Shown here: piece by piece, positions 26,739 through 55,177 of the stretch
Layout: each line of letters opens with the position of its first letter
Numbering within the stretch: position 1 is the stretch's first letter
Source: Escherichia coli
GTDB lineage: Bacteria; Pseudomonadota; Gammaproteobacteria; Enterobacterales; Enterobacteriaceae
Direction: 5' to 3' (one strand)
Assembly: GCF_024502345.1 (NCBI RefSeq)
Contig: NZ_JALDNN010000001.1
Length of the DNA: 64,000 bases
Program-made: the position numbers and the translations under genes
The notes under the pieces: model-generated
Databases searched by the model: none
Seen by the model: the letters and a program-made list of their open reading frames with translations, nothing else
Told to the model about the DNA's origin: nothing

Positions 26739-28133
26739 GTGTATTCAGTAAACCAGTTGGTTATCTCGGGCTGCAAACGGCAATGGATCCTGATGGACAC
26801 GGAAACCTCTATGCCGTTGCTGTATCCCCTTAGGTACCATATTGACCATTTAGCTTTCCGCTCATTGTCCACGCAGTCAGCTTCACTGCAATCTGTGAAG
26901 TTTTTTTACGAATTCTGGAATCAAAAGTATGGTGTCTCGTTTTGCTACAGCTTCTATTCATCTGGCCACAATCCAGACATCGCCGTCAGCGAAATGCCCG
27001 CATTTTGGCTGTATCTGGAAAATGGCCACAACGTCCAGTCAAATGTGTTGTCTTTAACAAGAGCCACCAAAGCCAGTAGCTTAACTCACGCAGCCAGAGT
27101 TCGTGCCGTGATTCATTTTCTTTCTTTTTTGATTAACACTTACATATCACCCGCATACCGGGACGACACGCCCAAAGCATTAACCCTTTTGGCCTCGCGT
27201 CTACACACCCGTTTGCAGCTTTGTCGGGATAATTATCGAACGCTTACACCAAACAAATTTTCGCTACGTAGTCACAACAGCCAGGGGTTTCAGAGTCTGT
27301 CTGGTGCAATGGTGCTCAGCCTGTATGGGATAATAGCCCCCTCTTCTGCCCAAAAGCATAATCCACTAAACCCTTTCCCTTCCGGACATCTTCAGTTCCG
27401 CAATTTTTTAATTATTCGCCTGTTATTAAATTATGGTTTACGAATAGGTGAGCTATTGTTGTTAGAGTGCAGTTCAATCAAACCAAATTTAAGAGGTGAT
27501 AAATTCAGTTTGATTGTGACAACTGTCGATGGGGGGTACGAACCAAGAAAAAATGCGCCGTCTCTCAAAAATGCATGGGCTAACCGTGTATTAGAACTCG
27601 ACAAGCAAGATTATATTTATTTAAGTATTTATATAGAAAAAATCCGGCCCAAAACACATAAGCACGATTTCATCTTTATATCGAGTCAACAGTCAAGAAA
27701 ACCATTGTCCTATACATCAGTTCATTCTATTTTTTCGAAAGTCGATAAGGTCTTTACTGATCAACACCCAGAGTACAAATCGCCCTTGTACTCTGATTCG
27801 TTGCAACGATTGACACCACATACAACCCGACATACTTGGGCCTTTTTGACATTGCAAAGAATATGGCATTCAAAATATTTGAGAAATCAGCTAAACAAAA
27901 CACACTTTGTTGCTGGAGTCCCTTCCCTCACAGGAGTAATGGAAGAAGCAAAAGATGAGCTACGGCTGATTGGAGGATGGAGCCCGACTAGTCAAATGCC
28001 TGATCTATATGCAAAACGCTTCCTTTCTGAGCAGGCTAATACTGCCAATATCCAACGTATTATTCAAGATAATGCTGCGCTGCAGAATACGTTAAATACA
28101 ATAATGGATAAATATAACGATGAGTTCATTTGA
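26739..28133 (+). CDS. tyrosine-type site-specific recombinase with a long N-terminal extension
   Basis: 464-aa ORF; C-terminal catalytic motifs GLRIGELLLLE, HTTRHTWAF and GGWS...LYAKRF; AT-rich; true start uncertain. Confidence 0.65.
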   Translation: MYSVNQLVISGCKRQWILMDTETSMPLLYPLRYHIDHLAFRSLSTQSASLQSVKFFYEFWNQKYGVSFCYSFYSSGHNPDIAVSEMPAFWLYLENGHNVQSNVLSLTRATKASSLTHAARVRAVIHFLSFLINTYISPAYRDDTPKALTLLASRLHTRLQLCRDNYRTLTPNKFSLRSHNSQGFQSLSGAMVLSLYGIIAPSSAQKHNPLNPFPSGHLQFRNFLIIRLLLNYGLRIGELLLLECSSIKPNLRGDKFSLIVTTVDGGYEPRKNAPSLKNAWANRVLELDKQDYIYLSIYIEKIRPKTHKHDFIFISSQQSRKPLSYTSVHSIFSKVDKVFTDQHPEYKSPLYSDSLQRLTPHTTRHTWAFLTLQRIWHSKYLRNQLNKTHFVAGVPSLTGVMEEAKDELRLIGGWSPTSQMPDLYAKRFLSEQANTANIQRIIQDNAALQNTLNTIMDKYNDEFI

Positions 28134-28308
28134 ACATACACTAAAATTTGATGAAGAGAGTTCAATTTACCCTGCTGATTTAGCTCAGGCAATCATTGAA
28201 CTTAAGGTTCCTGAGCGGATTTATCTAAAGACGGCTGTGGGGTTTGATGATAAATACATAATTAATAAAGGGAGCAAATGGACTTTTGATTACTCTGGTA
28301 GTCGGTGA
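28120..28308 (+). CDS. hypothetical small protein (62 aa) overlapping the recombinase stop
   Basis: ORF overlaps the recombinase 3' end by 14 bp; no recognisable domain. Confidence 0.3.
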   Translation: MSSFEHTLKFDEESSIYPADLAQAIIELKVPERIYLKTAVGFDDKYIINKGSKWTFDYSGSR

Positions 28309-28404
28309 TACCTTGTTTTTAATCAAGATAACATCTCAAATAAGCTAAACAAATATATTTGTTTCAAATATGCATCGACAAGATTCCCAACCAGGCTTCC
28401 AGCG

Positions 28405-28693
28405 TTGCATCTTGACTGGAGAAAAGCCATCACATATTGCCGGGAATATGGCGGATTTTCGTTTAGTACGCTCCGACTATTTATAGAAAGAGATAACATT
28501 GACAATGCTGTTTTTTATTCTGTGTTGTTCGGGTTAAAAATACTTTGTTCTGAAGCATTCCCGGGTTTCAGTCTTGAAGATTATGATGATCTGGAGTTCG
28601 TCCCTCGACCGCATCTCGATCGTTGGGGAGTTTATCAGGAAATCGATAATGTTCTTGATCCTCTCGAAAAAAATATGATTTGTAATGGGCTGT
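28405..28693 (+). pseudogene. hypothetical protein whose frame runs into IS903 copy 3 (3' end truncated)
   Basis: 99-aa ORF 28405..28704 whose last residues are encoded by the IS903 end. Confidence 0.3.
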
Positions 28694-29751
28694 GGCTTTG
28701 TTGAATAAATCGAACTTTTGCTGAGTTGAAGGATCAGATCACGTATCTTCCCGACAACGCAGACCGTTCCGTGGCAAAGCAAAAGTTCAAAATCACCAAC
28801 TGGCCCACCTACAATAAAGCCCTCATCAACCGTGGCTCCATAACTTTCTGGCTGGATGATGAAGCTATTCAGGCCTGGTATGAGTCAGCAACACCTTCTT
28901 CACGAGGCAGACCTCAGCGCTATTCTGACCTTGCCATCACGACTGTGCTTGGTCATTAAACGCGTATTCAGGCTGACCCTGCGCGCTGCGCAGGGCTTTA
29001 TTGATTCCATTTTTTCTCTGATGAACGTTCCGCTACGCTGCCCGGATTACAGCTGTGTCAGCAGGCGGGCAAAGTCGGTTAATGTCAGTTTCAAAACGCC
29101 CACCCGGGGTGAAATCGCACACCTGGTAATTGATTCCACCGGGCTGAAGGTCTTCGGTGAAGGCGAGTGGAAAGTCAAAAAGCATGGCCAGGAACGCCGC
29201 CGTATCTGGCGTAAGCTGCATCTCGCCGTTGACAGTAAAACACATGAAATCATCTGCGCTGACCTGTCGCTGAACAACGTTACGGACTCAGAGGCCTTCC
29301 CCGGGTTAATCCGGCAAACCCACCGGAAAATCAGGTCAGCCGCCGCCGATGGCGCTTACGATACCCGGCTATGTCACGATGAACTGCGGCGTAAGAAAAT
29401 CAGCGCGCTTATCCCTCCCCGAAAAGGTGCGGGTTACTGGCCCGGTGAATATGCAGACCGTAACCGTGCAGTGGCTAATCAGCGAATGACCGGGAGTAAT
29501 GCGCGGTGGAAATGGACAACAGATTACAACCGTCGCTCGATAGCGGAAACGGCGATGTACCGGGTAAAACAGCTGTTCGGGGGTTCACTGACACTGCGTG
29601 ACTACGATGGTCAGGTTGCAGAGGCTATGGCCCTGGTACGAGCGCTGAACAAAATGACGAAAGCAGGTATGCCTGAAAGCGTGCGTATTGCCTGAAAACA
29701 CAACCCGCTACGGGGGAGACTTACCCGAAATCTGATTTATTCAACAAAGCC
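28694..29751 (+). mobile_element. IS903-type insertion sequence, copy 3, 1058 bp, frameshifted transposase, no target duplication
   Basis: Extra T (gtgcttggtcatt versus gtgctggtcatt) splits the transposase into ORFs 28726..28959 and 28856..29695; flanks atgggctgt and cctgctgga differ. Confidence 0.9.
28726..29695 (+). pseudogene. IS903-type transposase, frameshifted
   Basis: Two overlapping ORFs together cover the transposase. Confidence 0.85.
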
Positions 29752-30490
29752 CCTGCTGGAACACATTGATCGTATTGAAGATAATATTACTGAATATGAC
29801 CGGATTTTGTCCCGCATGGCAAAAACAGATCACCGCAGCCAGCGATTGATGGAACTGAAAGGGATTGGTCCCACAACGGCCTGTGCGCTGGTCGCCAGTA
29901 TCGGTAATGCACACGATTTTAAAAATGGGCGACAACTGGCAGCCTGGCTGGGACTAACGCCATCGCAGTACAGCAGTGGTGGGAAATCAAAGCTTGGCAG
30001 GATAACTAAAGCTGGCGATTCGTATCTGCGAACGCTACTGGTTCAGAGGGCTCGTTCGGTTCTGATTGGTGCCGAGAAAAGGACTGATTTATTCAGTCGT
30101 TGGGTCTGTTCACTGGTCGATCGCAGAGGATACTGGCGTGCCGTTGTAGCCATCGCCGCCAAAAACGCAAGGCTGTGCTGGCATCATTGCATTACGGTGA
30201 TGATTTCAGGCTGTACTCAGCCAGCTAAAGCACGAAACAAAATAACCATCTGACCTGCAATTCGTTGATGATAAAGGGTTAGACCCCGTGAGGCCTATCT
30301 GGCTATTGTACAGGATATACGTATCCGCTTAACGAACAAGAACCTCACGCGCGTCTTTCATCAGGGTCCGAATCGATGACGATTCATCATGGCCGTTTAT
30401 AGTACCGCAGTCTCTCCCCTTTATTTTTACTGAAGAGCAGACAGAAACCATAAACACCGGCGTTGACACGCCGGGGAAGCCCTTATAGTA
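29752..30490 (+). mobile_element. IS110-family element, 3' fragment (transposase C-terminus plus non-coding end), truncated by IS903 copy 3
   Basis: ORF 29807..30253 matches the C-terminal 140 residues of the transposases at 37205..38269 and 38640..39662; 30254..30490 matches their 3' non-coding ends in reverse complement. Confidence 0.8.
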
Positions 30491-30628
30491 CAATAATTTT
30501 CGAAATCCAACCCATCCCGCCTACAGGAATGACGGATTTTTCGGCGGTTCCGGCGTAGACCCACCACAACTGCTGTATAGCTTGTGGGTAAGTGATAATG
30601 AAGTGCAAACGAGATGGCGCAAATACTC

Positions 30629-30675
30629 TTTTGGTTTATCTTTTAATTACTTACGTATTAAAAGATAAACCAAAA
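30629..30675. repeat. perfect palindrome, 17-bp arms with 13-nt spacer
   Basis: ttttggtttatctttta - attacttacgtat - taaaagataaaccaaaa. Confidence 0.9.
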
Positions 30676-30783
30676 AATAAAAGACATTACTGTTATCCCC
30701 TTTAAAAAGTGGATAACCGAACAGCATCGGCGCGAGCGCCTCAAAAGTAGCTCCCCACGCTAAAGCGCGGGGCATTCAGAACG

Positions 30784-30828
30784 GAATCCCTCGATGGCTA
30801 ACAGCTCGCCTGTTAGCCATCGAGGGAT
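30784..30828. repeat. perfect palindrome, 20-bp arms with 5-nt loop
   Basis: aatccctcgatggctaacag - ctcgc - ctgttagccatcgagggatt. Confidence 0.9.
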
Positions 30829-31127
30829 TGGACAAATCCGGCCACGCCGGATACGTCAGCAAATATCGCTGAAGAATTAGCTTACACGCTCGTAAGCGGC
30901 TCTTACGACCCGCTAACGCGGAGATACGCCCCAACTGCGGCTTCGCCTTGTTGTGACCACTCCGACCGCGCACAAAAGCCTCTGAGCCGCTTTTAGCGGA
31001 ATATGGCTTTGCAAGGTGAAGGGATGGATAGGCGATCCCTTTCGATCCCTCACTGGTATCGGCGGCTAACCCTCGGTGCTACCTGTCATTTCATCCTGCC
31101 GCCTTACATGCGCTAACGCGCATAAAT

Positions 31128-31165
31128 CCCCGTTCCTCAGTGGAACGAAAACTCACGCTAACAGG
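31128..31165 (+). repeat. relic of a Tn3-subgroup 38-bp terminal inverted repeat
   Basis: tccccgttc-CTCAGTGGAACGAAAACTCACG-ctaacag matches the core of the Tn3 repeat GGGGTCTGACGCTCAGTGGAACGAAAACTCACGTTAAG; inner end faces higBA. Confidence 0.6.
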
Positions 31166-31200
31166 GTAGTGACCGGGTAGCCACGATAACTGCCAACAAA

Positions 31201-31251
31201 ATTAGCTTATAGGTTAATTCTACCTTGTCTGAAATTAGCCTATAGGTTAAT
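31201..31251 (+). promoter_or_regulatory. two copies of an 18-bp near-palindrome upstream of higB (candidate operator)
   Basis: attagcttataggttaat (31201..31218) and attagcctataggttaat (31234..31251), followed by tattaat and a GGAGG ribosome-binding site. Confidence 0.55.
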
Positions 31252-31273
31252 ATTAATAGAAATGGGAGGTCAC

Positions 31274-31603
31274 ATGTTTAGCGTTGTTTATCACCCGGAA
31301 GCCAGGGAAGAAGCCACAGCATTACCCGTAAAAATCAGGGTGAAGTTTGACCGTCTCATCGGCAAACTGGAGTATGACGCCCGATTACTGCGGGAGCCGG
31401 ACACGAAGCCCCTGGGCGATGGACTTTTTGAGATCCGCACGATGGGGACGGACATAGCCAGGGGAATCTGGGTATACCACAAAGGCAATACCATCATCAT
31501 GCTCCGTGTTTTCATCAAGAAGTCACAGAAAACGCCAGCGAAAGAAATCGATCTCGCCAAAAAGCGGTTAGCGGAGGTACTTAATGAAACTGGTAAGCCA
31601 TAA
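31274..31603 (+). CDS. higB: RelE/ParE-superfamily toxin (HigB-like)
   Basis: About 110 aa from MFSVVYHPEAREEA; toxin precedes and overlaps an XRE-HTH partner by 20 bp, the HigBA arrangement. Confidence 0.7.
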   Translation: MFSVVYHPEAREEATALPVKIRVKFDRLIGKLEYDARLLREPDTKPLGDGLFEIRTMGTDIARGIWVYHKGNTIIMLRVFIKKSQKTPAKEIDLAKKRLAEVLNETGKP

Positions 31604-31865
31604 AGAACTGCATAACGAGTGGATGCAGGACGATGAATATCGCGCTGCATGGCAGGAAGAAGAACGTAAGGAAAAGCTCAGGGAGCTGCTTGCTGAATGG
31701 CGCAAGCATGACAACCTGACAAAAGCGCAGGTTGCTGAACGCATGGGGGTTACACCTCCGGTTATTTCTCGCCTGGAAAACAACATCACCAAAGCCAGCA
31801 TCGACACACTGACCCGCTACGCTCACGCCTGCGGCATCAAGAAACCTGTCATTGCCCTGTACTGA
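31584..31865 (+). CDS. higA: XRE-family HTH antitoxin (HigA-like)
   Basis: 93 aa; HTH segment LTKAQVAERMGVTPPVISRLEN. Confidence 0.7.
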   Translation: MKLVSHKELHNEWMQDDEYRAAWQEEERKEKLRELLAEWRKHDNLTKAQVAERMGVTPPVISRLENNITKASIDTLTRYAHACGIKKPVIALY

Positions 31866-31867
31866 AT

Positions 31868-31897
31868 AGCCAGCCCTCCGGGGCTGGCCTTTTTGTT
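31868..31897 (+). terminator. rho-independent terminator after higA
   Basis: agccagccc-tccgg-ggctggcc followed by tttttgttt. Confidence 0.7.
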
Positions 31898-32074
31898 TCG
31901 GTCAGTCCCAAAATTTTGTTAAAGCAAGTTTAAAATGTCACCTGTTTCTCCAAAGTTGAAATGTCACTTCTAAGCCAATCTATTTATACATAATCTTTAC
32001 ATCTTTCCCCGGTGACAAAGTGCTAATTGGTCTGTAATGTTCAATGTGTGGCAGGCAAGCCGCCGGTGACTTAG

Positions 32075-33270
<1,196 letters not shown>

Positions 33271-33439
33271 TTAATATAAAGACACAAGCAGAGACATTTT
33301 TGGCACGATATAAAAACGCTAAGTTAAAAAATCACTATGACGTGTTGGGTATCAAATGTTCACTGGCATAAACCTCTGTTTCTGATGTAAAACAGATTTT
33401 CTGAGGAGGCGTAAAACCTCCTCGTACTGCGAAATTGAT

Positions 33440-33940
33440 TTAGTGATAGCGATCGATCACGCCAACCAGATAGTGGTCGGTTTGCTGCATGTTGATGCCC
33501 GCTTTTTTAGCGCTGCGGACTTCATCCAGAATGATTTGCAACAGCGTCCCGTCCACGATTTCCTCTTTTCTGTATCGCTTCAGGAAGTTAATCGCTGACT
33601 TATCGTTTGCTGCCTGGGCGTCTTCCGTCAAAGAGGTCAGCGCATTAATGCGCTTCTGGTAATCGCTTACCGTCTGCTCAAACAGATCTTCCAGCGTGGA
33701 AAATTCACCGCACCGGGCGTGTTGCTCCTGTAACACCGGCGTGGCGCCGCTCTGTTTGATGTATTCGTACATGCGCATCATTTGCGTCACCGTATTTTGC
33801 GCCTGATGACGCAAAAATAGTGCGGTGCCATTAAGGCTATTCTCGCTGCACCTCTGGCTGAGCTGAAGATACAAATTTGAGGTATAAAACTCCTGATTCA
33901 TTTGCGCATTCAGTTTTTGAACTATTCCGCTAGCGATCAT
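33440..33940 (-). CDS. ferritin-like protein (FtnB/YecI-like paralog)
   Basis: 166 aa; NAQMNQEFYTSNLYLQLS and TQMMRMYEYIK resemble recalled E. coli FtnB at roughly half identity; hairpin terminator downstream. Confidence 0.7.
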   Translation of the reverse strand: MIASGIVQKLNAQMNQEFYTSNLYLQLSQRCSENSLNGTALFLRHQAQNTVTQMMRMYEYIKQSGATPVLQEQHARCGEFSTLEDLFEQTVSDYQKRINALTSLTEDAQAANDKSAINFLKRYRKEEIVDGTLLQIILDEVRSAKKAGINMQQTDHYLVGVIDRYH

Positions 33941-34358
33941 AGGACTTCCTTATTTCTTGTCATCTCAGAAAACGGTCACTCTTCGAAAAAATAACCAGAA
34001 TAAAAGCGATTCTTTCGCTTTTTTTATTGCGCCTGGTTACGCAGTCATATTCATTTTAAGTCGGGATGCTCCTTATTTAAATATCCAACCCTACTATCGC
34101 ATTTCTATCTGGCATTATTCTGTGATGGTGTTTCGATATTCACACTCCCTGTGCCAATCCTTTCTTATCGACAGTAGGAAACTTCCTCCGGCTATTCTGC
34201 TGAACACGATTAGGGGCACTGTTGCAAAGTTAGCGATGAGGCAGCGTTTTGTCTTATTCAAAGGCCTTACATTTCAAAAACTCTGCTTACCAGGCGCATT
34301 TCGGGTGATGCTGCCAACTTACTGATTTAGTGTATGATGGTGTTTTTGAGGTGCTCCA

Positions 34359-34634
34359 GTGGCTTCTGTTTCTATCAGCTGTCCCTCCTGTTCAGCTACT
34401 GACGGGGTGGTGCGTAACGGCAAAAGCACCGCCGGACATCAGCGCTATCTCTGCTCTCACTGCCGTAAAACATGGCAACTGCAGTTCACTTACACCGCTT
34501 CTCAACCCGGTACGCACCAGAAAATCATTGATATGGCCATGAATGGCGTTGGATGCCGGGCAACCGCCCGCATTATGGGCGTTGGCCTCAACACGATTTT
34601 CCGCCATTTAAAAAACTCAGGCCGCAGTCGGTAA
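34359..34634 (+). CDS. insA: IS1 InsA
   Basis: 91 aa [30 protein letters not shown]... Confidence 0.9.
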
Positions 34635-35056
34635 CCTCGCGCATACAGCCGGGCAGTGACGTCATCGTCTGCGCGGAAATGGACGAACAGTGGGGATACG
34701 TCGGGGCTAAATCGCGCCAGCGCTGGCTGTTTTACGCGTATGACAGGCTCCGGAAGACGGTTGTTGCGCACGTATTCGGTGAACGCACTATGGCGACGCT
34801 GGGGCGTCTTATGAGCCTGCTGTCACCCTTTGACGTGGTGATATGGATGACGGATGGCTGGCCGCTGTATGAATCCCGCCTGAAGGGAAAGCTGCACGTA
34901 ATCAGCAAGCGATATACGCAGCGAATTGAGCGGCATAACCTGAATCTGAGGCAGCACCTGGCACGGCTGGGACGGAAGTCGCTGTCGTTCTCAAAATCGG
35001 TGGAGCTGCATGACAAAGTCATCGGGCATTATCTGAACATAAAACACTATCAATAA
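34553..35056 (+). CDS. insB: IS1 InsB reading frame (expressed as InsAB' by frameshifting)
   Basis: 167-aa [24 protein letters not shown]... overlapping insA. Confidence 0.9.
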
Positions 35057-35066
35057 GTTGGAGTCA

Positions 35067-35747
35067 TTACCGCATTTCGCCCAGGGGATCACCATAATAA
35101 AATGCTGAGGCCTGGCCTTTGCGTAGTGCACACATCACCTCAATACCTTTGATGGTAGCGTAAGCCGTCTTCATGGATTTAAATCCCAGCGTGGCGCCGA
35201 TTATCCGTTTCAGTTTGCCATAATCGCATTCAATCACGTTGTTCCGGTACTTAATCTGTCGGTGTTCAACGTCAGACGGGCACCGGCCTTCGCGTTTGAG
35301 CAGAGCAAGCGCGCGACCATAGGCGGGCGCTTTATCCGTGTTGATGAATCGCGGGATCTGCCACTTCTTCACGTTGTTGAGGATTTTACCCAGAAACCGG
35401 TATGCAGCTTTGCTGTTACGACGGGAGGAGAGATAAAAATCGACAGTGCGGCCCCGGCTGTCGACGGCCCGGTACAGATACGCCCAGCGGCCATTGACCT
35501 TCACGTAGGTTTCATCCATGTGCCACGGGCAAAGATCGGAAGGGTTACGCCAGTACCAGCGCAGCCGTTTTTCCATTTCAGGCGCATAACGCTGAACCCA
35601 GCGGTAAATCGTGGAGTGATCGACATTCACTCCGCGTTCAGCCAGCATCTCCTGCAGCTCACGGTAACTGATGCCGTATTTGCAGTACCAGCGTACGGCC
35701 CACAGAATGATGTCACGCTGAAAATGCCGGCCTTTGAATGGGTTCAT
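35067..35747 (-). CDS. tnpA: IS26 transposase, C-terminally truncated by the IS1 insertion
   Basis: MNPFKGRHFQRDIILWAVRWY...GDPLGEMR then stop; the recalled native protein continues LVSRVFEM. Confidence 0.85.
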   Translation of the reverse strand: MNPFKGRHFQRDIILWAVRWYCKYGISYRELQEMLAERGVNVDHSTIYRWVQRYAPEMEKRLRWYWRNPSDLCPWHMDETYVKVNGRWAYLYRAVDSRGRTVDFYLSSRRNSKAAYRFLGKILNNVKKWQIPRFINTDKAPAYGRALALLKREGRCPSDVEHRQIKYRNNVIECDYGKLKRIIGATLGFKSMKTAYATIKGIEVMCALRKGQASAFYYGDPLGEMR

Positions 35748-44770: not shown

Positions 44771-47755
44771 ATGCCACGGCGACAGATACTGAGCAGCGAA
44801 GAGCAGGAACGCTTACTGGTTATACCAGATGATGAAATTATTCTGACCCGAATGTGTTTTCTGAACGAACCGGATATTGCGCTCATTAATAAGCACCGAA
44901 GGCCAGCGAATCGCCTGGGCTTTGCTGTATTACTCTGTTATCTGCGTGGACCTGGATTTATTCCGGACAAAAGCAGTGCTCCTCACAATGGCGTTGTATC
45001 CAGGGTTGCTTCCCGACTGAAACTTCAGCCTGATTTATGGCCGGAATATGCATCCAGAGAGCAAACCCGCTGGGAACATCTGACCGAACTTTATCGCTAC
45101 CTGGAACTATCCCCGTTCAGCCGGTCAATGCAAAAAGACTGTATCCGTCATCTGCACCCCTATGCCATGCGAACTGACAAAGGATTTATGCTGGCGGAAG
45201 AAATGCTCAGCTGGCTACATAACAATAATGTTATTTTCCCTTCTGTTGAAGTGATCGAACGGACGCTTGCCGAAGTCGTCACGCTCGCTAACAGATCGGT
45301 ATTTTCGACACTTACCGCGCAACTGGAAAAGCAGCATAAATCAGCACTCGACAGCCTGCTCATATCAGAGGGTGAACAACCTTCCCGTCTGGCATGGCTG
45401 CTACAGCCTCCGGGTAAAATAAACGGTAAAAATGTGCTGCAACATATCGACCGGCTTAATTCCATCGCTGCGCTGGGGTTGCCTGATGGTATTGCACTTT
45501 CCGTTCACCAGAACAGGTTGCTTAAACTGGCGCGTGAGGGCCGGAAAATGAGCAGCAGGGACCTGGCAAAATTCACCGATGTCAGACGTTACGCTACGCT
45601 GGTTTGTATAATAACAGAGGCCAGGGCCACCCTGACTGACGAAGTGATTGATCTGCACGAGCGTATCCTGGGTAGTCTGTTCAGCAGGGCAAAACGCACG
45701 CAGGCCGAACGGCTCCAGCAAACGGGAAAGCTTATTCAGAGCAAGCTGAAGCAGTACGTTACCGTCGGGCAGGCGTTACTTAACGCCAGAGAATCCGGGG
45801 AAGATCCCTGGACTGCAATAGAAGATGTCCTTCCCTGGCAGGAATTCATCAACAGCGTGGAAGAAACGCGGTTTCTTTCCCGTAAGGGCAATTTCGACGC
45901 GCTTCATCTGATCACCGAAAAATACAGTACGTTGCGTAAATATGCCCCGCGTATGCTGTCAGCATTGCAGTTCATGGCGACACCTGCGGCGCAGGCGCTC
46001 AGCGATGCGCTGGACACCATAACGGAAATGTACCGTAAACAACTTCGTAAAGTGCCGCCATCAGCGCCAACAGGGTTTATCCCTGAAAGCTGGCGAAAAC
46101 TGGTGCTCACGCCTTCAGGCATCGACCGCAAGTACTACGAGTTTTGCGTACTGAATGAACTCAAGGGTGCATTACGTTCCGGTGATATCTGGGTAAAAGG
46201 ATCGCGCCGCTACAAAAATTTTGATGATTATCTCATCCCGACTGCTGAGTTTGAGAAATCCCGACATAATGACCAGTTACAGTTGGCCGTTCAGACCGAT
46301 AGCCAGGCATACCTTCAGGCCCGTATGACTCTTCTTGCATCTCGGCTGGAAGAAGTTAACGCGATGGCGCTTGCCGGTGATTTGCCCGATGTAGATATCT
46401 CAGATAAAGGCGTAAAAATCACTCCACTGGAGAACAGCGTTCCTTCAGGTGTTTCGCCCTTTGCAGATTTGGTCTATGGCATGCTTCCCCATCCGAAAAT
46501 TACGGAGATACTGGAAGAAGTTGATAGCTGGACGGGATTTACGCGTCACTTCGCGCACCTCAAAAATAATAACGTCAGACCAAAAGACGGAAGACTGTTG
46601 CTGACCACCATTCTGGCTGACGGCATCAACCTTGGGCTGACAAAAATGGCGGAATCCTGCCCTGGGGCCACAAGATCGTCACTCGAAGGTATTCAGACAT
46701 GGTACATCAGGGATGAAACTTATTCAGCGGCACTGGCCGAGCTGGTCAACGCACAGAAAGAGCGGCCTCTGGCCGCATTCTGGGGCGACGGGACAACATC
46801 GTCGTCAGACGGGCAGAACTTTCGGGTAGGCAGTCACGGACGTTATGCCGGTCAGGTCAATCTTAAATATGGTCAGGAGCCGGGCGTGCAGATTTATACG
46901 CATATCTCAGACCAATACAGCCCGTTCTACGCCAAAGTGATCAGCCGGGTGCGCGACTCAACCCACGTGCTTGATGGCCTGCTGTACCATGAAAGCGATC
47001 TGGAAATTACCGAGCATTACACCGATACCGCAGGCTTCACTGAACATGTTTTCGCCCTGATGCACCTGCTGGGATTCGCTTTTGCGCCAAGGATCCGTGA
47101 TCTTCATGACAAGCGGCTGTTTATTCATGGAAAGGCCGAGCGCTATCCGGGGCTTCAGTCTGTCATATCAACAACCTGCCTGAATATCAAAGACATTGAG
47201 TCGCACTGGGATGAGGTATTGCGCCTGGCAACCTCGATTAAGCAGGGGACAGTCACCGCATCACTGATGATGAAAAAGTTAGCCAGTTACCCAAAACAGA
47301 ATGGACTTGCCAAAGCGCTGAGAGAGATTGGCCGCATCGAACGGACACTATTTATGCTGGACTGGTTCCGTGATCCCGGTCTGCGCCGACGCGTGCAGGC
47401 GGGGCTGAATAAGGGTGAGGCCCGTAATGCCCTTGCGCGAGCGGTCTTTTTGCACCGTCTGGGTGAAATAAGGGATCGTGGGCTGGAGAATCAGAGTTAT
47501 CGCGCCAGCGGGCTGACATTACTGACAGCAGCGATCACGTTGTGGAACACGGTATATATAGAAAGAGCTATTGAGTCACTAAAACGAAAGGGTATCCCGA
47601 TAAATGAGCAACTGGTCTCTCATCTTTCTCCCCTGGGCTGGGAACATATCAATCTGAGTGGAGATTACGTCTGGCGTAATAATCTTAAGCTGGGATCCGG
47701 AAAATACCGCTCATTACGTACAGTCGATACCGCTTTGTACAAAAAACAGTCTTAG
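44771..47755 (+). CDS. tnpA: Tn3-family DDE transposase
   Basis: 994-aa ORF; stop codon lies inside the terminal repeat. Confidence 0.85.
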   Translation: MPRRQILSSEEQERLLVIPDDEIILTRMCFLNEPDIALINKHRRPANRLGFAVLLCYLRGPGFIPDKSSAPHNGVVSRVASRLKLQPDLWPEYASREQTRWEHLTELYRYLELSPFSRSMQKDCIRHLHPYAMRTDKGFMLAEEMLSWLHNNNVIFPSVEVIERTLAEVVTLANRSVFSTLTAQLEKQHKSALDSLLISEGEQPSRLAWLLQPPGKINGKNVLQHIDRLNSIAALGLPDGIALSVHQNRLLKLAREGRKMSSRDLAKFTDVRRYATLVCIITEARATLTDEVIDLHERILGSLFSRAKRTQAERLQQTGKLIQSKLKQYVTVGQALLNARESGEDPWTAIEDVLPWQEFINSVEETRFLSRKGNFDALHLITEKYSTLRKYAPRMLSALQFMATPAAQALSDALDTITEMYRKQLRKVPPSAPTGFIPESWRKLVLTPSGIDRKYYEFCVLNELKGALRSGDIWVKGSRRYKNFDDYLIPTAEFEKSRHNDQLQLAVQTDSQAYLQARMTLLASRLEEVNAMALAGDLPDVDISDKGVKITPLENSVPSGVSPFADLVYGMLPHPKITEILEEVDSWTGFTRHFAHLKNNNVRPKDGRLLLTTILADGINLGLTKMAESCPGATRSSLEGIQTWYIRDETYSAALAELVNAQKERPLAAFWGDGTTSSSDGQNFRVGSHGRYAGQVNLKYGQEPGVQIYTHISDQYSPFYAKVISRVRDSTHVLDGLLYHESDLEITEHYTDTAGFTEHVFALMHLLGFAFAPRIRDLHDKRLFIHGKAERYPGLQSVISTTCLNIKDIESHWDEVLRLATSIKQGTVTASLMMKKLASYPKQNGLAKALREIGRIERTLFMLDWFRDPGLRRRVQAGLNKGEARNALARAVFLHRLGEIRDRGLENQSYRASGLTLLTAAITLWNTVYIERAIESLKRKGIPINEQLVSHLSPLGWEHINLSGDYVWRNNLKLGSGKYRSLRTVDTALYKKQS

Positions 47756-47788
47756 CGTGGGATAATTTCCGTTTTCCAAGCGGACCCC
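47751..47788 (-). repeat. 38-bp terminal inverted repeat of the Tn3-family element
   Basis: Reverse complement reads GGGGTCCGCTTGGAAAACGGAAATTATCCCACGCTAAG. Confidence 0.85.
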
Positions 47789-47858
47789 AGGGAGAGCTGA
47801 GAACATTAAATTTTAATATAAACAAAGAATTACCTTCTTAGCGTACGTTACCGTCCCA

Positions 47859-48092
47859 TTGGCCCTCAAACCCCTCAACACCCTGATGGAACGTTTTTTT
47901 AGAAGTCTGAAAACAGAATGGGTGCCGGATAATGGATACGCTAATTTTAGCGAAGCCAGCACAGCGATAACGAATTACATAACGGGATATTACAGCCAGC
48001 TCAGACCTCATCAATATAACGGTAGTTTGACGCGGAATGAATCAGAACGATTGCTCTGGAAAAACTCTAAAGCCGTGGCCAACTATTGTTGA
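47859..48092 (+). pseudogene. IS3-family integrase (orfB) C-terminal remnant
   Basis: 77-aa ORF with the YYSQLRPHQYNG motif typical of IS3-family integrase C-termini. Confidence 0.5.
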
Positions 48093-48103
48093 CCACTACA
48101 CAT

Positions 48104-48571
48104 CTATTTTATAGGTAACCCCTTAAAAGATTTAATCTCCTTGATACTGAAACTGGTATTCATCTCCTTTATATTCCCAATTTTTCGTATCCTTATCATT
48201 GATACGTTGTGAAAATCATCCATATCTTTTACTACAAGATGCAGAAGATAGTCGTATCTTCCGGAGATATTATGACAGGCAATTACATTATCAATCTTCA
48301 TTATTTCTGCCTCAAAATATTGCATGCACTCCTCGGAATGAAGATCTAATGTAATATTCATGAATGCATAAAAATTGTATCCAAGGCTTTTCGGTTCGAT
48401 AAAAGCCCGATAGTTTTTTATCACTTCCTGCTCTAAAAACTTTAGCCGTTTCCAGCAGGCTGGAGGGGAAAGAAAAACACGCTTGGCAATCTCAGCGTTG
48501 TTCAGCCTGCCATCTTCCTGCAAGAAATTTAAAATCTGCATATCAACTTTGTCAAGCTTTACCATGTTCAA
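48104..48571 (-). CDS. Lrp/AsnC-family transcriptional regulator
   Basis: 155 aa; N-terminal HTH (LDKVDMQILNFLQEDGRLNNAEIAKRV) and C-terminal ligand-binding fold. Confidence 0.75.
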   Translation of the reverse strand: MNMVKLDKVDMQILNFLQEDGRLNNAEIAKRVFLSPPACWKRLKFLEQEVIKNYRAFIEPKSLGYNFYAFMNITLDLHSEECMQYFEAEIMKIDNVIACHNISGRYDYLLHLVVKDMDDFHNVSMIRIRKIGNIKEMNTSFSIKEIKSFKGLPIK

Positions 48572-48773
48572 CCTCCTGTGATAGCAATCATATTCGTAAT
48601 TTTATGAAATAAAATTAACCAAATCAATAAAAACAAGAAATAAGATAAGCCATAAATTGTAAAAATAGTTAATTTTAAAAAGATAATTAATATACTTACC
48701 GGGTAGAATCATTTATGAAGTGCAAACCTCTGTAAATAATTACCATAAAATATCCTCACACAGGAATATACCT

Positions 48774-50081
48774 ATGACCATATTGGAACAGAACATCGAC
48801 AGGGCCTCATTATCGCCAGAAGAGTGGAAAAAACTAACCCGATTTGACAGTACAGATGTAGGATGGATTATCATAAGCATAGGTATGGCTATCGGCGCCG
48901 GGATTGTGTTTTTACCGGTCCAGGTGGGGCTTATTGGATTGTGGGTATTCCTGCTTTCTTCCATCATTGGTTATCCGGCCATGTACCTGTTTCAAAGATT
49001 GTTTATCAATACGCTGGCAGATTCACGAGAGTGTAAAGACTATCCCGGTGTCATCGAGGGCTATCTGGGAAAAAACTGGGGAATGCTCCTCGGTCTGCTC
49101 TACTTTCTCATGCTGGTCATCTGGATATTCGCCTACCCTACGGCGTTGACTAACGATACAGCGTCGTATTTACACACGTTTGGCTTAACTGAGGGTCTTT
49201 TATCAGAGAACCCTTTCTATGGCCTAATTCTTATTACATTTCTTGTGCTTATTGCTTCACGTAGTGAAGAGCTCTTGTTCAGGATTTCCTCTTTCATGGT
49301 GTTATCAAAACTGGTGGTAGTGCTTATCCTGGGGTTGATGATGGTCAGCATGTGGGACCTCTCCAAAAACATCGGTTCATTCCCTTCTTTTAGTATTTTA
49401 ATCAAAAACGCCATTATCACCTTGCCATTTACGTTGACATCAATCCTGTTTATTCAGTCTTTGAGTCCGATGGTAATTTCATATCGTGCAAAAAACAAAT
49501 CTATAGAAGTGGCAAGATATAAAGCGCTAAGAGCAATGAATATCGCTTTTGGTACACTATTCATCGTTGTTTTCTTTTATGCATTATCATTCACTTTCGC
49601 CCTCGGTCACGATGAAGCTGTCAAAGCCTACGAGCAAAATATTTCAGCACTGGCTATTGCCGCACAGTTTATTGAAGGAGATGCAGCAAAGTATGTGACG
49701 CCAGTTGGTGTTGCATTGAATATCTTTGCCCTGATGACTGCCTTCTTCGGCGTTTACCTCGGGTTCAAAGAGGCTGTACAGGGACTGGCGATGAACGCAT
49801 TGACCCGTTTTATACCTTCAGAGAAAATCAATAAAAAAACGCTTAATGTTGGTATTGTCATTTTCACTATTGCCATCGCCTGGGGGGCAATCGTTCTGAA
49901 CCTGCCGGTTCTGCTATTCACCTCAATCTGCAGCCCCATTTTCGGCATTGTTGGTTGCTTAATCCCTGCTTATCTGGTTTACAAGGTACCCTCCCTTCAC
50001 CGATATAAAGGGTTTTCTCTGTATCTGATCATCTTTACTGGCATCCTGCTCTGTATTTCTCCGTTCCTGAAATTCATTTAA
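48774..50081 (+). CDS. HAAAP-family amino-acid transporter (serine/threonine/aromatic type)
   Basis: ORF 48720..50081; motifs AIGAGIVFLP and AYLVYKVPSLHRYKG resemble recalled TdcC/SdaC; polytopic. Confidence 0.7.
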   Translation: MTILEQNIDRASLSPEEWKKLTRFDSTDVGWIIISIGMAIGAGIVFLPVQVGLIGLWVFLLSSIIGYPAMYLFQRLFINTLADSRECKDYPGVIEGYLGKNWGMLLGLLYFLMLVIWIFAYPTALTNDTASYLHTFGLTEGLLSENPFYGLILITFLVLIASRSEELLFRISSFMVLSKLVVVLILGLMMVSMWDLSKNIGSFPSFSILIKNAIITLPFTLTSILFIQSLSPMVISYRAKNKSIEVARYKALRAMNIAFGTLFIVVFFYALSFTFALGHDEAVKAYEQNISALAIAAQFIEGDAAKYVTPVGVALNIFALMTAFFGVYLGFKEAVQGLAMNALTRFIPSEKINKKTLNVGIVIFTIAIAWGAIVLNLPVLLFTSICSPIFGIVGCLIPAYLVYKVPSLHRYKGFSLYLIIFTGILLCISPFLKFI

Positions 50082-50112
50082 ACAAACATATATGTCCAAA
50101 GAAGGTTAAATT

Positions 50113-51318
50113 ATGAAGTACAATTTTGATGAAATTATCAACAGAAAAAATACTGATGCCCTGAACTACGATGGGTGGAGACAATATATATTCAAGGCCG
50201 ACAAGAGTGCCCGCTTTGACTTTAAGGACGATGAATTTGTCAGAATGTGGGTCGCTGATATGGATTTTGCGACACCTCCGGAAATCCTTGCAGCGATTCA
50301 GGAGAGGCTTGATAAAAAAATACTCGGTTACACAAAAGTTTACGATGATGAGTACTATCATATTTTCCACAACTGGTGCCAGAGACGCTATGACTGGAAT
50401 ATAGATACCACAGAGATCGTGCTTTCACCGGGCATTATTCCTGCACTTAACCGTCTGGTACCGTTACTGACACAACAGGATGAAAGTGTGTTGATCAATA
50501 CACCATCCTATACGCCGTTTAAGCAGGCTGGAGACTATAGCTATCGTCGAGTGATCTGTTCTGATTTGCTGAAACAGGACAATGAATACATTATTGACTT
50601 CAACGATATGGAGAAAAAACTAACCGATCCTTCTCTAAATATTAAGCTGTTCATTTTATCCAATCCGCAAAATCCAACCGGGATGGTCTGGTCAGAACAA
50701 GAATTAATGAGAATGGGGCAGTTGTGCCTTAAAAACAATGTCTGGATCATTTCAGACGAAATACATTGTGATTTACTGAGAAATGGGATCAATCATATCC
50801 CGATGGCAAAACTGTTCCCAGACACTGATAAGATCATCACCTGTATGGCACCAAGCAAAACCTTTAATCTTGCCGGAAATCTGATGTCCCATATTTTTAT
50901 TAAAAATGAAAAGGTCAGAAAAGAATGGTTACGTCTTTATGATGAGTTTCTTTCACCACTGAGTCTGGCTGCGACCAAAGCGGCCTGGTCCCGGTGCGAC
51001 GAGTGGCTGGAACAATTAAAACACTATCTTGATGATAACTTCAGACTGGTAGAAAAATTTACCCAGGAACACTTTCCTGACGCAAACTTTAAAATTCCCG
51101 ATGCAACTTATCTGGCATGGATAAATATTGAGAAATACCTGCCACCGCAGGTAGACAGACAACAGCTTTCTCTCTATTTCGCCAACCAGACGGGAATACT
51201 GCTTGAAGGCGGGAACATGTTTGTAAGCAATGGAGAGGGTTACATACGGATTAATCTTGCCTGTCCACGCGCCGTGATACAAGAAGGATTAGAGAGAATA
51301 AGAAAAGCACTGAAATAG
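50113..51318 (+). CDS. PLP-dependent C-S lyase, MalY/PatB type
   Basis: 401 aa, aminotransferase class I/II fold with MalY/PatB-like N-terminus MKYNFDEIINRKNTDALNYDGW. Confidence 0.7.
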   Translation: MKYNFDEIINRKNTDALNYDGWRQYIFKADKSARFDFKDDEFVRMWVADMDFATPPEILAAIQERLDKKILGYTKVYDDEYYHIFHNWCQRRYDWNIDTTEIVLSPGIIPALNRLVPLLTQQDESVLINTPSYTPFKQAGDYSYRRVICSDLLKQDNEYIIDFNDMEKKLTDPSLNIKLFILSNPQNPTGMVWSEQELMRMGQLCLKNNVWIISDEIHCDLLRNGINHIPMAKLFPDTDKIITCMAPSKTFNLAGNLMSHIFIKNEKVRKEWLRLYDEFLSPLSLAATKAAWSRCDEWLEQLKHYLDDNFRLVEKFTQEHFPDANFKIPDATYLAWINIEKYLPPQVDRQQLSLYFANQTGILLEGGNMFVSNGEGYIRINLACPRAVIQEGLERIRKALK

Positions 51319-51507
51319 TAAATCCCTGAAAATTTCAGCCTGATCGTCCAAAAGGTCGCAGTTTAAACAATGCGACCTTTATACCGGATAATTTAGCATG
51401 TTGAACCGATTTTCGGAGACTCTCTATCGCGCTGGACGGCTCTGCATGTACATTGTCGCCTGAAAAATAATATCAGGGATATAAATAGCCTGTTAATACC
51501 TCGTTTC

Positions 51508-52565
51508 GGCTTTGTTGAATAAATCAGATTTCGGGTAAGTCTCCCCCGTAGCGGGTTGTGTTTTCAGGCAATACGCACGCTTTCAGGCATACCTGCTTTC
51601 GTCATTTTGTTCAGCGCTCGTACCAGGGCCATAGCCTCTGCAACCTGACCATCGTAGTCACGCAGTGTCAGTGAACCCCCGAACAGCTGTTTTACCCGGT
51701 ACATCGCCGTTTCCGCTATCGAGCGACGGTTGTAATCTGTTGTCCATTTCCACCGCGCATTACTCCCGGTCATTCGCTGATTAGCCACTGCACGGTTACG
51801 GTCTGCATATTCACCGGGCCAGTAACCCGCACCTTTTCGGGGAGGGATAAGCGCGCTGATTTTCTTACGCCGCAGTTCATCGTGACATAGCCGGGTATCG
51901 TAAGCGCCATCGGCGGCGGCTGACCTGATTTTCCGGTGGGTTTGCCGGATTAACCCGGGGAAGGCCTCTGAGTCCGTAACGTTGTTCAGCGACAGGTCAG
52001 CGCAGATGATTTCATGTGTTTTACTGTCAACGGCGAGATGCAGCTTACGCCAGATACGGCGGCGTTCCTGGCCATGCTTTTTGACTTTCCACTCGCCTTC
52101 ACCGAAGACCTTCAGCCCGGTGGAATCAATTACCAGGTGTGCGATTTCACCCCGGGTGGGCGTTTTGAAACTGACATTAACCGACTTTGCCCGCCTGCTG
52201 ACACAGCTGTAATCCGGGCAGCGTAGCGGAACGTTCATCAGAGAAAAAATGGAATCAATAAAGCCCTGCGCAGCGCGCAGGGTCAGCCTGAATACGCGTT
52301 TAATGACCAAGCACAGTCGTGATGGCAAGGTCAGAATAGCGCTGAGGTCTGCCTCGTGAAGAAGGTGTTGCTGACTCATACCAGGCCTGAATAGCTTCAT
52401 CATCCAGCCAGAAAGTTATGGAGCCACGGTTGATGAGGGCTTTATTGTAGGTGGGCCAGTTGGTGATTTTGAACTTTTGCTTTGCCACGGAACGGTCTGC
52501 GTTGTCGGGAAGATACGTGATCTGATCCTTCAACTCAGCAAAAGTTCGATTTATTCAACAAAGCC
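51508..52565 (-). mobile_element. IS903-type insertion sequence, copy 4, 1058 bp, same frameshift as copy 3, intact 9-bp target duplication
   Basis: Flanks cctcgtttc (51499..51507) and cctcgtttc (52566..52574); same extra base as copy 3. Confidence 0.9.
51564..52533 (-). pseudogene. IS903-type transposase, frameshifted
   Basis: ORFs 51564..52403 and 52300..52533. Confidence 0.85.
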
Positions 52566-52598
52566 CCTCGTTTCCTCTCTTCATGACACCCTGACTCA

Positions 52599-53728: not shown

Positions 53729-53771
53729 CCTGAGTTCTCCTGAAAACAGAGCGGCTACAGCCGCTCACAGA

Positions 53772-55164: not shown

Positions 55165-55177
55165 TGCGGATCACTCC

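What the first reader, a model, noticed from the sequence alone, without database searches (positions are those of the whole stretch)
29752..30490. Inverted partial IS110-family copy abutting IS903 copy 3
The fragment contains only the C-terminal 140 codons and 3' non-coding end of an IS110-family element, in the opposite orientation to the two full copies about 7 kb away. It ends exactly at the IS903 boundary, and IS903 copy 3 has no target duplication. This suggests an IS903-associated deletion removed the 5' part and whatever lay beyond it.
Basis: seen in the sequence. Interest (0 to 1): 0.35.

Follow-up and report, generated by a model that had tools for sequence, protein, structure and literature searches.

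The report
Dead insertion-sequence stub beside IS903B
This is the right-hand half of a known kind of RNA-guided insertion sequence (IS110/IS1111 group), cut off by a neighbouring IS903B; it is ordinary mobile-element debris at the edge of a block of plasmid-type DNA in an E. coli chromosome.

Summary
Window 29752..30487 is the 3' 736 bp (nt 630-1365) of an IS1111-group, IS110-family element. It aligns inverted to the two full copies: copy A at 91.7% and copy B at 78%. It is a third variant ("F"), not a duplicate of either. The same variant sits full length at the same site, beside the same RelE/HTH toxin-antitoxin pair, in many enterobacterial plasmids and in E. coli VREC0864 (99.9-100% identity).

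The stub lacks the left end and the catalytic DEDD domain. It keeps the C-terminal domain, which carries an inherited 1-bp frameshift. It also keeps the whole 259-nt 3' non-coding region, with guide segments that covary with the flanking target, and the right subterminal repeat.

It abuts IS903B copy 3 exactly, and that copy has no 9-bp duplication.

Left of IS903B lies chromosomal DNA (a cut integrase gene). The stub is the left edge of a 27.6-kb accessory block (29752..57361) bounded by direct IS903B copies 3 and 5. In VREC0864 the block's two cut ends are joined by 12.5 kb.

The IS903B junction was found in no other record. This is a known kind of feature and of low interest.

The parts
28694..29751 (+). 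IS903B copy 3 (1058 bp). It has 18-bp terminal repeats (GGCTTTGTTGAATAAATC), no 9-bp target duplication, and an extra T at element position 256 that frameshifts its transposase.
   Evidence: NCBI names matching copies 'IS5-like element IS903B family transposase'.
29752..30487 (+). Truncated IS1111-group (IS110-family) element, variant F: nt 630-1365 of a 1365-bp element. The left end, left subterminal repeat and DEDD domain are missing.
   Evidence: There is one SNP (30047 G>A) relative to the full-length copies in L003 and L008.
29753..30253 (+). Remnant reading frame. It holds codons 183-340 of the transposase (the Transposase_20 domain only). A 1-bp deletion at 30180-81 extends the frame to 30253.
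   Evidence: Pfam PF02371 only, E=1e-27, with no PF01548. NCBIfam NF033542 matches profile positions 189-336. The deletion is shared with L003 and L008.
30229..30487 (+). Complete 3' non-coding region of the element, the region that encodes the seekRNA/bridge-type guide RNA in IS1111-family elements.
   Evidence: PMC11187229.
30304..30311 (+). Guide segment TATTGTAC, complementary to the right flank GTACAATA (30488..30495).
   Evidence: It covaries with the flank in four variants: TATCCTAC/GTAGGATA, AAAACGTAC/GTACGTTTT, AAAAATCGT/ACGATTTTT.
30328..30336 (+). Segment CTTAACGAA, identical to the left junction of intact copies (target CTTAA + element CGAA).
   Evidence: The Burkholderia relative has CCGCCGAA with left flank ...CCCGC.
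30397..30405 (+). Segment TTATAGTAC, identical to the right junction (element TTATA + flank GTAC).
   Evidence: Copy B has TTATAGTAG with flank GTAG. The Pseudomonas relative has TTGTAG with element end TTGTA|G.
30473..30487 (+). Right subterminal inverted repeat GGGGAAGCCCTT plus the 3-bp terminal extension ATA.
   Evidence: The 7/3-bp rule is from PMC11187229.
30488..30521 (+). Outer part of the degenerate Tn3-family terminal-repeat-like target in which the element sits (GTACAATAATTTTCGAAATCCAACCCATCCCGCC).
   Evidence: Right flanks of about 9 independent insertions are the outer 32 bp of 38-bp repeats, most of them ending in CCCC. An intact repeat of this type is at 47751..47788.
31262..31865 (+). 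RelE/Gp49-like toxin (31262..31603) and HTH antitoxin (31584..31865). This is the constant right-hand neighbour of variant F in plasmids.
36948..38311 (-). Full copy A (1364 bp, 340-aa transposase), 91.3% DNA and 96.8% aa identical to F.
38383..39746 (-). Full copy B (1364 bp), named IS5708 family by NCBI, 79.9% DNA identical to F. It is inserted in the terminal repeat next to a Tn3-family tnpA 3' fragment (39747..40088).
55178..57361 (-). Truncated dmsA-like gene, the other cut end of the accessory block, abutting IS903B copy 5.
57362..58418 (+). IS903B copy 5. It is in the same orientation as copy 3 and has no target duplication (ATCTTCCGG / CCGGTTGAA). Its right flank is chromosomal yddB.

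Best explanation
Window 29752..30487 is an inactive 3' remnant of an IS1618-like member of the IS1111 group of the IS110 family (variant F). Intact copies are 1365-1366 bp. They carry subterminal inverted repeats, a 340-aa DEDD transposase and a 259-nt downstream non-coding region. That region carries guide segments matching the junctions of the element with its target, the inner part of a Tn3-family 38-bp terminal repeat.

The stub keeps only the C-terminal transposase domain (already frameshifted in its lineage), the full guide-RNA region and the right end. Lacking the left end and the catalytic domain, it cannot move. (Shown.)

It was cut by an IS903B-associated rearrangement. It forms the left edge of a 27.6-kb plasmid-type accessory block, bounded by direct IS903B copies 3 and 5, that replaces E. 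coli chromosomal DNA between the hipBA-adjacent integrase island and yddB. (Shown.)

Inferred history. In a circular or plasmid-borne ancestor, the 12.5 kb between the dmsA-like gene and F was replaced or bracketed by IS903B. This happened either by one IS903B adjacent deletion or by two IS903B insertions followed by IS903B-IS903B recombination. The resulting IS903B-joined segment then entered the chromosome through IS903B, by cointegrate formation or by homologous recombination with a resident copy, with loss of the chromosomal interval.
For: - Identity and truncation. There is a 751-nt inverted alignment to copy A (91.7%) and a 740-nt alignment to copy B (78%). Full-length F lies at the same site in L001, L002, L003 and L008, 99.9-100% identical over the retained part.
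- Domains. The stub has Transposase_20 only. Intact copies have DEDD_Tnp_IS110 plus Transposase_20 and match NF033542, 'IS110 family RNA-guided transposase'.
- Ends and target. Subterminal repeats AAGGG(A)CTTCCCC are present. About 9 independent insertions lie at the same position of terminal-repeat-like sequences.
- Guide region. Four covarying guide/target pairs were found. A conserved stem (CGUGAGG/CCUCACG) encloses the guides, and 6 pairs show compensatory changes. This agrees with the published seekRNA architecture of IS1111 elements (PMC11187229).
- IS903B. Copy 3 has exact ends and no duplication.
- Context. The left flank matches the chromosomal island up to 28693. To the right of copy 5 lies yddB-pqqL-gadB.
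- Comparison with VREC0864. L008 6893-24793 corresponds to window 38372-57361, and L008 37340-40865 to window 29752-33277, at 99.9% identity. The 12,546 bp between the two breakpoints are absent from the window.
- Private event. The IS903B|F junction is absent from 72,556 plasmids, 5,426 E. coli genomes and the genome-contig collection. The breakpoint region is uninterrupted in 371 of 377 plasmid records and 119 of 120 E. coli records with a match.
Against: - No intermediate was found. There is no record with IS903B inserted in F with a CCTGCTGGA duplication, and the reciprocal junction (F 5' half abutting IS903B) is not in the window.
- The outer flanks of copies 3 and 5 are not a 9-bp duplication. 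A cointegrate or composite-transposon route therefore needs an additional deletion, or a pre-existing chromosomal IS903B that had already made one.
- VREC0864 is itself rearranged: IS1 cuts the first 11 bp of F, and ISKpn26 abuts gadC. It is not a direct ancestor.
- Expression of the guide RNA from the stub is untested. The published work found no promoter in such elements other than the one formed on the circular intermediate, and a consensus scan found nothing above chance.
Confidence: 0.8

Rival explanations
1. Plain in-situ adjacent deletion. A resident IS903B, by intramolecular transposition, deleted the 5' half of F and all DNA up to the integrase gene in one step within the chromosome. 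A second, independent deletion occurred at copy 5.
For: IS903B copy 3 has no target duplication, and both of its flanks are truncated genes. IS903 is known, from general knowledge of the element, to give adjacent deletions and cointegrates. The chromosome here is rich in IS903B, with five copies in 64 kb.
Against: This reading needs an ancestor in which the accessory block lay in the chromosome with F leftmost and dmsA rightmost, plus two separate outward deletions. The only close relative found (VREC0864) has these two ends linked to each other by 12.5 kb, which is a circular permutation of the window order. No genome with the required contiguous arrangement was found.
Confidence: 0.15
2. Assembly artefact. 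The contig was mis-joined across one of several near-identical IS903B copies, so the integrase'-IS903B-F' adjacency does not exist in the cell.
For: There are five IS903B copies at 99.7-100% identity within 64 kb, and copies 3 and 4 are identical. Copies 3 and 5 both lack duplications. The junction is unique among all the collections searched.
Against: The structure is internally coherent. The two odd copies bracket one accessory block in direct orientation, and the chromosome resumes collinearly at yddB. Copies 1 and 2 show a clean reciprocal flank exchange, as expected of a real inversion. Even with a mis-join, F would still end at an IS903B end, so the truncation itself would stand.
Confidence: 0.04
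3. The 736-bp piece is a complete, small non-autonomous element (a miniature derivative) rather than a truncated copy.
For: It keeps a full right end and the guide-RNA region, which are the parts a trans-mobilised derivative would need on that side.
Against: There is no left end or left subterminal repeat at 29752. The boundary falls in the middle of codon 182 of the transposase and coincides exactly with the IS903B repeat. The breakpoint region is continuous in 371 plasmid and 119 E. coli records, and the 736-bp unit with this left boundary occurs nowhere else.
Confidence: 0.01

Closest known systems
IS1618 / IS5708 (IS1111 group of the IS110 family; names as used in NCBI annotation and ISfinder-based papers)
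   Same: Intact F has the same architecture as these elements: about 1365 bp, a 340-aa DEDD + Transposase_20 transposase, subterminal repeats, and a 257-259-nt downstream non-coding region. Copy B is 100% identical to elements NCBI labels IS5708 family. F is 90.2% DNA and 94.4% aa identical to a Yersinia pestis element labelled IS1618 family. IS1618 has been reported next to a Tn3-family tnpA (PMC6339943).
   Different: The window piece is only the 3' 54% of such an element. F sits at the border of the usual isoform thresholds relative to the IS1618-labelled copy, and the ISfinder reference sequence could not be consulted.
IS4321 / IS5075 (IS1111-family elements that target the terminal repeats of Tn21-family transposons)
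   Same: They share the family, subterminal repeats, insertion without duplication, and a target that is the 38-bp terminal repeat of Tn3-family transposons (PMC8269217; PMC11187229).
   Different: The insertion position within the repeat differs. The F/A/B group sits 5-6 bp from the inner end (CTTAA(C)|GTAC...). IS5075 in VREC0864 sits mid-repeat, at window position ~47767 of the intact repeat 47751..47788. Different guides are therefore expected.
seekRNA / bridge RNA of IS1111- and IS110-type elements (Siddiquee et al. 2024, PMC11187229)
   Same: The non-coding region lies downstream of tnp. A top-strand-pairing segment lies 5' of a segment identical to the top strand. The guides lie in an internal loop closed by a conserved stem, and they covary with the target.
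   Different: No RNA data are available here. The stub is an orphan copy with no cognate transposase gene in cis and no circle-junction promoter.
IS903B-bounded composite segments / IS-mediated integration of plasmid DNA
   Same: Two direct IS903B copies bracket 27.6 kb of plasmid-type genes in a chromosome.
   Different: There is no 9-bp duplication at the outer flanks, and about 20 kb of chromosome is missing (by K-12 map positions recalled from memory, not measured here). It is therefore not a simple composite-transposon insertion.

Membership tests
IS110 family, IS1111 group | Transposase with an N-terminal DEDD (RuvC-like) domain and a C-terminal Transposase_20 domain | tested here: met
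   Intact F, copy A and copy B have PF01548 + PF02371 and match NF033542 at 357-360 bits (cut-off 140). The stub has only PF02371 and profile positions 189-336, so it is a partial member.
IS110 family, IS1111 group | Subterminal inverted repeats of 11-13 bp, with about 7-bp left and 3-bp right terminal extensions | tested here: met
   The left repeat is AAGGGACTTCCCC, preceded by (C)GAATGG. The right repeat is GGGGAAGCCCTT, followed by ATA. Boundaries are confirmed by divergence among independent insertions; the left boundary is ambiguous by 1 nt. The stub retains only the right repeat, at 30473..30487 (rule from PMC11187229).
IS110 family, IS1111 group | Long non-coding region downstream of tnp | tested here: met
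   It is 257-259 nt in F, A and B, and is complete in the stub at 30229..30487.
IS110 family, IS1111 group | The non-coding region encodes a guide RNA with segments matching both strands of the target | tested here: met
   Shown by sequence only. There are four covarying guide/right-flank pairs, a covarying left-junction motif, and a conserved enclosing stem with compensatory changes. The RNA itself was not observed.
IS110 family, IS1111 group | Site-specific insertion without target duplication | tested here: met
   About 9 independent insertions lie at the same position of Tn3-family terminal-repeat-like sequences, with no duplication.
IS110 family, IS1111 group | Circular intermediate whose joined ends form the tnp promoter | not testable with these tools
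   This needs PCR or sequencing of circles. The stub cannot form one because it has no left end.
IS1618 (as an isoform) | More than 95% aa or more than 90% DNA identity to the reference element | tested here: inconclusive
   F is 90.2% DNA and 94.4% aa identical to a Y. pestis element that NCBI labels IS1618 family. The ISfinder reference was not available.
IS903 (IS5 family) | About 1057 bp with 18-bp terminal inverted repeats and a DDE_Tnp_1-type transposase | tested here: met
   Five copies of 1057-1058 bp have perfect GGCTTTGTTGAATAAATC ends. They are 99-99.9% identical to copies annotated IS903B.
IS903 (IS5 family) | 9-bp target duplication at a simple insertion | tested here: not met
   This is not met for copy 3 (ATGGGCTGT / CCTGCTGGA) or copy 5. 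It is met for copy 4 (CCTCGTTTC). For copies 1 and 2 it is met after allowing for an inversion. The result marks copy 3 as a rearrangement junction and does not argue against it being IS903B.

The most novel reading that the evidence does not exclude
The orphan stub still makes a working guide RNA. Transcription could come by read-through from the co-oriented IS903B transposase gene ending at 29695. The RNA could then load onto the 96.8%-identical transposase of copy A, so the dead fragment would act as an extra, trans-acting guide-RNA gene that boosts or tunes transposition of its intact relatives into Tn3-family terminal repeats.
Probability: 0.04. Interest if true: 0.3.

Novelty: already known. 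Interest (0 to 1): 0.1.

Why it matters
It matters little beyond correct annotation. The piece should be labelled as a truncated IS1111-group (IS1618-like) element with an orphan guide-RNA region, not as a gene.

Its exact abutment to an IS903B copy without a duplication is a useful marker. It shows that a 27.6-kb plasmid-type block was built and placed in this E. coli chromosome by IS903B activity, displacing native genes between the hipBA-adjacent island and yddB.

The side result is that the IS1618/IS5708 group carries guides that covary with a fixed position near the inner end of Tn3-family terminal repeats. This fits published seekRNA biology rather than extending it.

Tried and rejected
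- Rfam scan of 28000..41000 at E<=1. No family covers the non-coding region. The only hits were a sub-threshold HgcC-like match at 30734..30860 and spurious miRNA matches.
- Exact 39-mer across the IS903B|F junction in genome contigs: zero hits.
- 160-bp and 2.4-kb junction queries against plasmids and E. coli genomes. No record covers the junction.
- Hit H66 (L005) looked like a second IS903-IS110 junction. It is actually a full IS110-family copy followed by a 5'-truncated IS903-like element at its right end, so the order is different. Rejected.
- Search of the window for the missing 5' half of F next to another IS903B copy. Only copies A (91%) and B (80%) match.
- Pairing of the flanks of the five IS903B copies to find a reciprocal partner for copy 3. 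None was found; only copies 1 and 2 pair up.
- Consensus promoter scan of 29500..30700: 2 sites against 1.4 expected, which is uninformative.
- Partridge & Hall 2003 (PMC219399) is not held, so the published IS4321/IS5075 insertion position could not be read. It was inferred instead from the IS5075 copy in L008.
- An empty-site search for the F target was not run, because boundaries could be set from independent insertions.

Full report
**1. What is at the coordinates**

IS903 ends at 29751 with its right inverted repeat (...GATTTATTCAACAAAGCC). From 29752/29753 the sequence aligns, inverted, to the two full IS110-family copies downstream:
- 29753..30502 vs 37681..36933: 91.7% over 751 nt, E=0.
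- 29773..30510 vs 39096..38360: 78.4%.

This is far beyond chance. The frame 29753..30253 carries only the C-terminal Transposase_20 domain (PF02371, E=1e-27). The intact relatives carry DEDD_Tnp_IS110 plus Transposase_20 and match NCBIfam NF033542, 'IS110 family RNA-guided transposase'.

**2. It is a truncation of a third variant, not a copy of the neighbours**

- Klebsiella plasmids L001 and L002 have a full 340-aa gene at the same place, directly upstream of the same RelE/HTH pair. L001 3001..6524 equals window 29752..33274 at 99.8%.
- L003 and many other plasmids match from exactly window 29752 rightwards at 99.9-100%, and continue leftwards into the 5' half of the element.
- I call this variant F. 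Element ends follow the IS1111-family rule: 11-13-bp subterminal repeats with about 7-bp left and 3-bp right extensions (PMC11187229). The same ends follow from where independent insertions diverge. On that basis F is 1366 bp in L001 and 1365 bp in L003.
- The stub is nt 630-1365. Its true right end is 30487 (+/-1). The further similarity to 30502/30510 is similarity between target sites.
- The stub shares a 1-bp deletion in a G-run (30180-81) with L003 and L008. This deletion alters the last ~15 codons. The stub differs from those copies by a single SNP at 30047.
- F is 91.3% DNA and 96.8% aa identical to copy A (36948..38311, minus strand).
- F is 79.9% DNA and 87.1% aa identical to copy B (38383..39746, minus strand).
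- Copy B is 100% identical to elements NCBI names IS5708 family.
- F is 90.2% DNA and 94.4% aa identical to a Yersinia pestis element named IS1618 family.

**3. What the retained 3' non-coding end is**

In IS1111-type elements the region downstream of tnp encodes the seekRNA. This RNA binds the transposase and carries short matches to both strands of the target (PMC11187229). The stub keeps this whole 259-nt region.

- TATTGTAC (30304..30311) is complementary to the right flank GTACAATA.
- This pairing covaries in relatives:
  - copy B: TATCCTAC with flank GTAGGATA;
  - L014: AAAACGTAC with GTACGTTTT;
  - a Pseudomonas plasmid element: AAAAATCGT with ACGATTTTT.
- CTTAACGAA (30328..30336) equals the left junction. 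A Burkholderia relative with left flank ...CCCGC has CCGCCGAA instead.
- TTATAGTAC (30397..30405) equals the right junction and changes to TTATAGTAG in copy B.
- RNAalifold on eight variants places the first two guides in an internal loop closed by a conserved stem (CGUGAGG/CCUCACG) around a small hairpin. Six pairs show compensatory changes.
- Rfam has no model for this region.
- The non-coding region is widespread: 2,219 plasmid records match it, 1,451 over at least 80% of its length.

**4. The target**

Right flanks of about 9 independent insertions are the outer 32 bp of Tn3-family 38-bp terminal repeats, most of them ending ...CCCC. The left flank CTTAA(C) is the inner end of the repeat. 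An intact repeat of the same type is at 47751..47788, right after a Tn3-family tnpA.

This parallels IS4321/IS5075, which target Tn21-family terminal repeats (PMC8269217). The position within the repeat is different, however: IS5075 in L008 sits mid-repeat, at window ~47767.

**5. The IS903B side**

The window has five IS903B copies.
- Copy 4 has a perfect 9-bp duplication.
- Copies 1 and 2 have reciprocally exchanged flanks, which indicates an inversion of 17893..20246. Comparison with L004 confirms this.
- Copies 3 and 5 have no duplication.

**6. Context**

- Left of copy 3 the window is E. coli chromosome: lsrK, an autotransporter gene, hipBA, and two integrase genes of an island present in 66 complete genomes. 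The second integrase is cut at 28693, and the rest of the island is absent from the window.
- Right of copy 5 the chromosome resumes inside yddB, followed by pqqL and gadB.
- Between them, 29752..57361 is plasmid-type mosaic DNA. In order it holds F', RelE/HTH, ISKpn26, ferritin, IS1, IS26, an IS3 fragment, copies A and B, Tn3-family modules, an amino-acid permease, MalY, IS903B copy 4, and a DMSO-reductase-like operon whose A subunit is truncated at 57361.
- That operon occurs in only 75 of 5,426 E. coli genomes, mostly on plasmids.

**7. The informative relative**

E. coli VREC0864 (L008) carries the same block at 99.9% identity, in a different order.
- L008 6893..24793 corresponds to window 38372..57361. 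The window additionally carries an IS3-type insertion and IS903B copy 4, and lacks two IS5075 copies.
- L008 37340..40865 corresponds to window 29752..33277.
- The two breakpoints that abut IS903B in the window are joined in L008 by 12,546 bp. This stretch holds the dmsA 5' part, TetR, gorA, DsbA, IS200C, OsmC, an effector/nucleotidyltransferase pair, IS1B and the F 5' half.

The window order is thus a circular permutation, opened at IS903B. This favours a history in which IS903B replaced or bracketed that interval in a circular or plasmid-borne form. The IS903B-joined segment then integrated through IS903B, with loss of chromosomal DNA. These steps are inferred. No intermediate was found.

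**8. How common the break is**

- The IS903B|F junction was found in none of 72,556 plasmids, 5,426 complete E. coli genomes, or the species-representative genome collection.
- The same 240 bp of F spanning the breakpoint are uninterrupted in 371 of 377 plasmid records and 119 of 120 E. coli records with a match.
- The truncation is therefore private to this lineage.

**9. Verdict**

The loss is IS903B-associated, but as part of forming and integrating an IS903B-bounded module rather than a simple local deletion.

The stub is non-functional as a mobile element. Its only conceivable residual activity is as an orphan guide-RNA gene, which is untested and unlikely. It is a known kind of object and of low interest.

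Noticed in passing
window 16836..21303: IS903B copies 1 (+) and 2 (-) sit in the ECSE_1600-type autotransporter gene with reciprocally exchanged 9-bp flanks (GCTGGCTTG / ACACCTAAG). The 2.35-kb segment between them (17893..20246) is inverted relative to L004. This is the pattern of two simple insertions followed by inversion through IS903B-IS903B recombination.
   Followed up: yes
window 28694..29751 and 51508..52565: IS903B copies 3 and 4 are 100% identical. Both carry an extra T at element position 256 that frameshifts the transposase. Copy 4 nevertheless has a clean 9-bp duplication (CCTCGTTTC) and is absent from VREC0864. This suggests either mobilisation in trans by the intact copies or a later gene conversion.
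   Followed up: partly
window 47751..47788; L008 14943..16268: An uninterrupted 38-bp Tn3-family terminal repeat (CTTAGCGTGGGATAATTTCCGTTTTCCAAGCGGACCCC) follows tnpA. VREC0864 has an IS5075 inserted mid-repeat there. The IS1618/IS5708-type elements instead insert 5-6 bp from the inner end, so two IS1111-group lineages use different positions of the same kind of repeat.
   Followed up: partly
window 36948..39746: Copies A and B lie head to tail, 71 bp apart. Each is in its own terminal-repeat-like target, and the two repeats are in direct orientation. In VREC0864 a related A-like copy, an IS5075 and IS5708 pile up at the same place.
   Followed up: partly
window 30629..30675 and 30734..30860: A 47-bp near-perfect palindrome lies just right of the stub's target. 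Next to it is a sub-threshold Rfam HgcC-like match on the minus strand (32 bits against a gathering score of 50, E=2.7e-4). Their meaning is unknown and the match is probably chance.
   Followed up: no
window 31128..31162 and 31195..31255: A Tn3-like terminal-repeat relic (…CTCAGTGGAACGAAAACTCACGCTAAC) lies upstream of the RelE/HTH pair, recognised by eye against the Tn3 terminal repeat recalled from memory and not checked with a tool. It is followed by two direct repeats (AAATTAGCYTATAGGTTAAT) just before the toxin start. This would be consistent with a toxin-antitoxin passenger of a Tn3-family transposon and its operator.
   Followed up: no
window 41897..43231: A 1,335-bp insertion carrying an rve-domain (IS3-family) transposase ORF interrupts the block relative to VREC0864.
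   Followed up: no
L015 1637..1878: In a K. aerogenes IncHI2 plasmid, the right end of an IS5708 copy is followed directly by a second copy of the IS5708 non-coding region and right end. This looks like a nested or tandem partial insertion.
   Followed up: no
L016 and L017 (Pseudomonas amygdali and Burkholderia glumae plasmids): The central ~90 nt of the non-coding region (…CGAAC…CCTCACG…CGTCTTTCATCAGGGTCCG…GACCGTTT…GTAGTAC/TTCGCAGTC…) is 77-79% conserved in elements from other orders. This marks the protein-binding scaffold of the guide RNA.
   Followed up: partly
window 28120..28704: The second integrase gene of the hipBA-adjacent island is cut by IS903B. It also appears to be broken into short ORFs (62 aa and 99 aa) before the cut, so it may already have been a pseudogene.
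   Followed up: no
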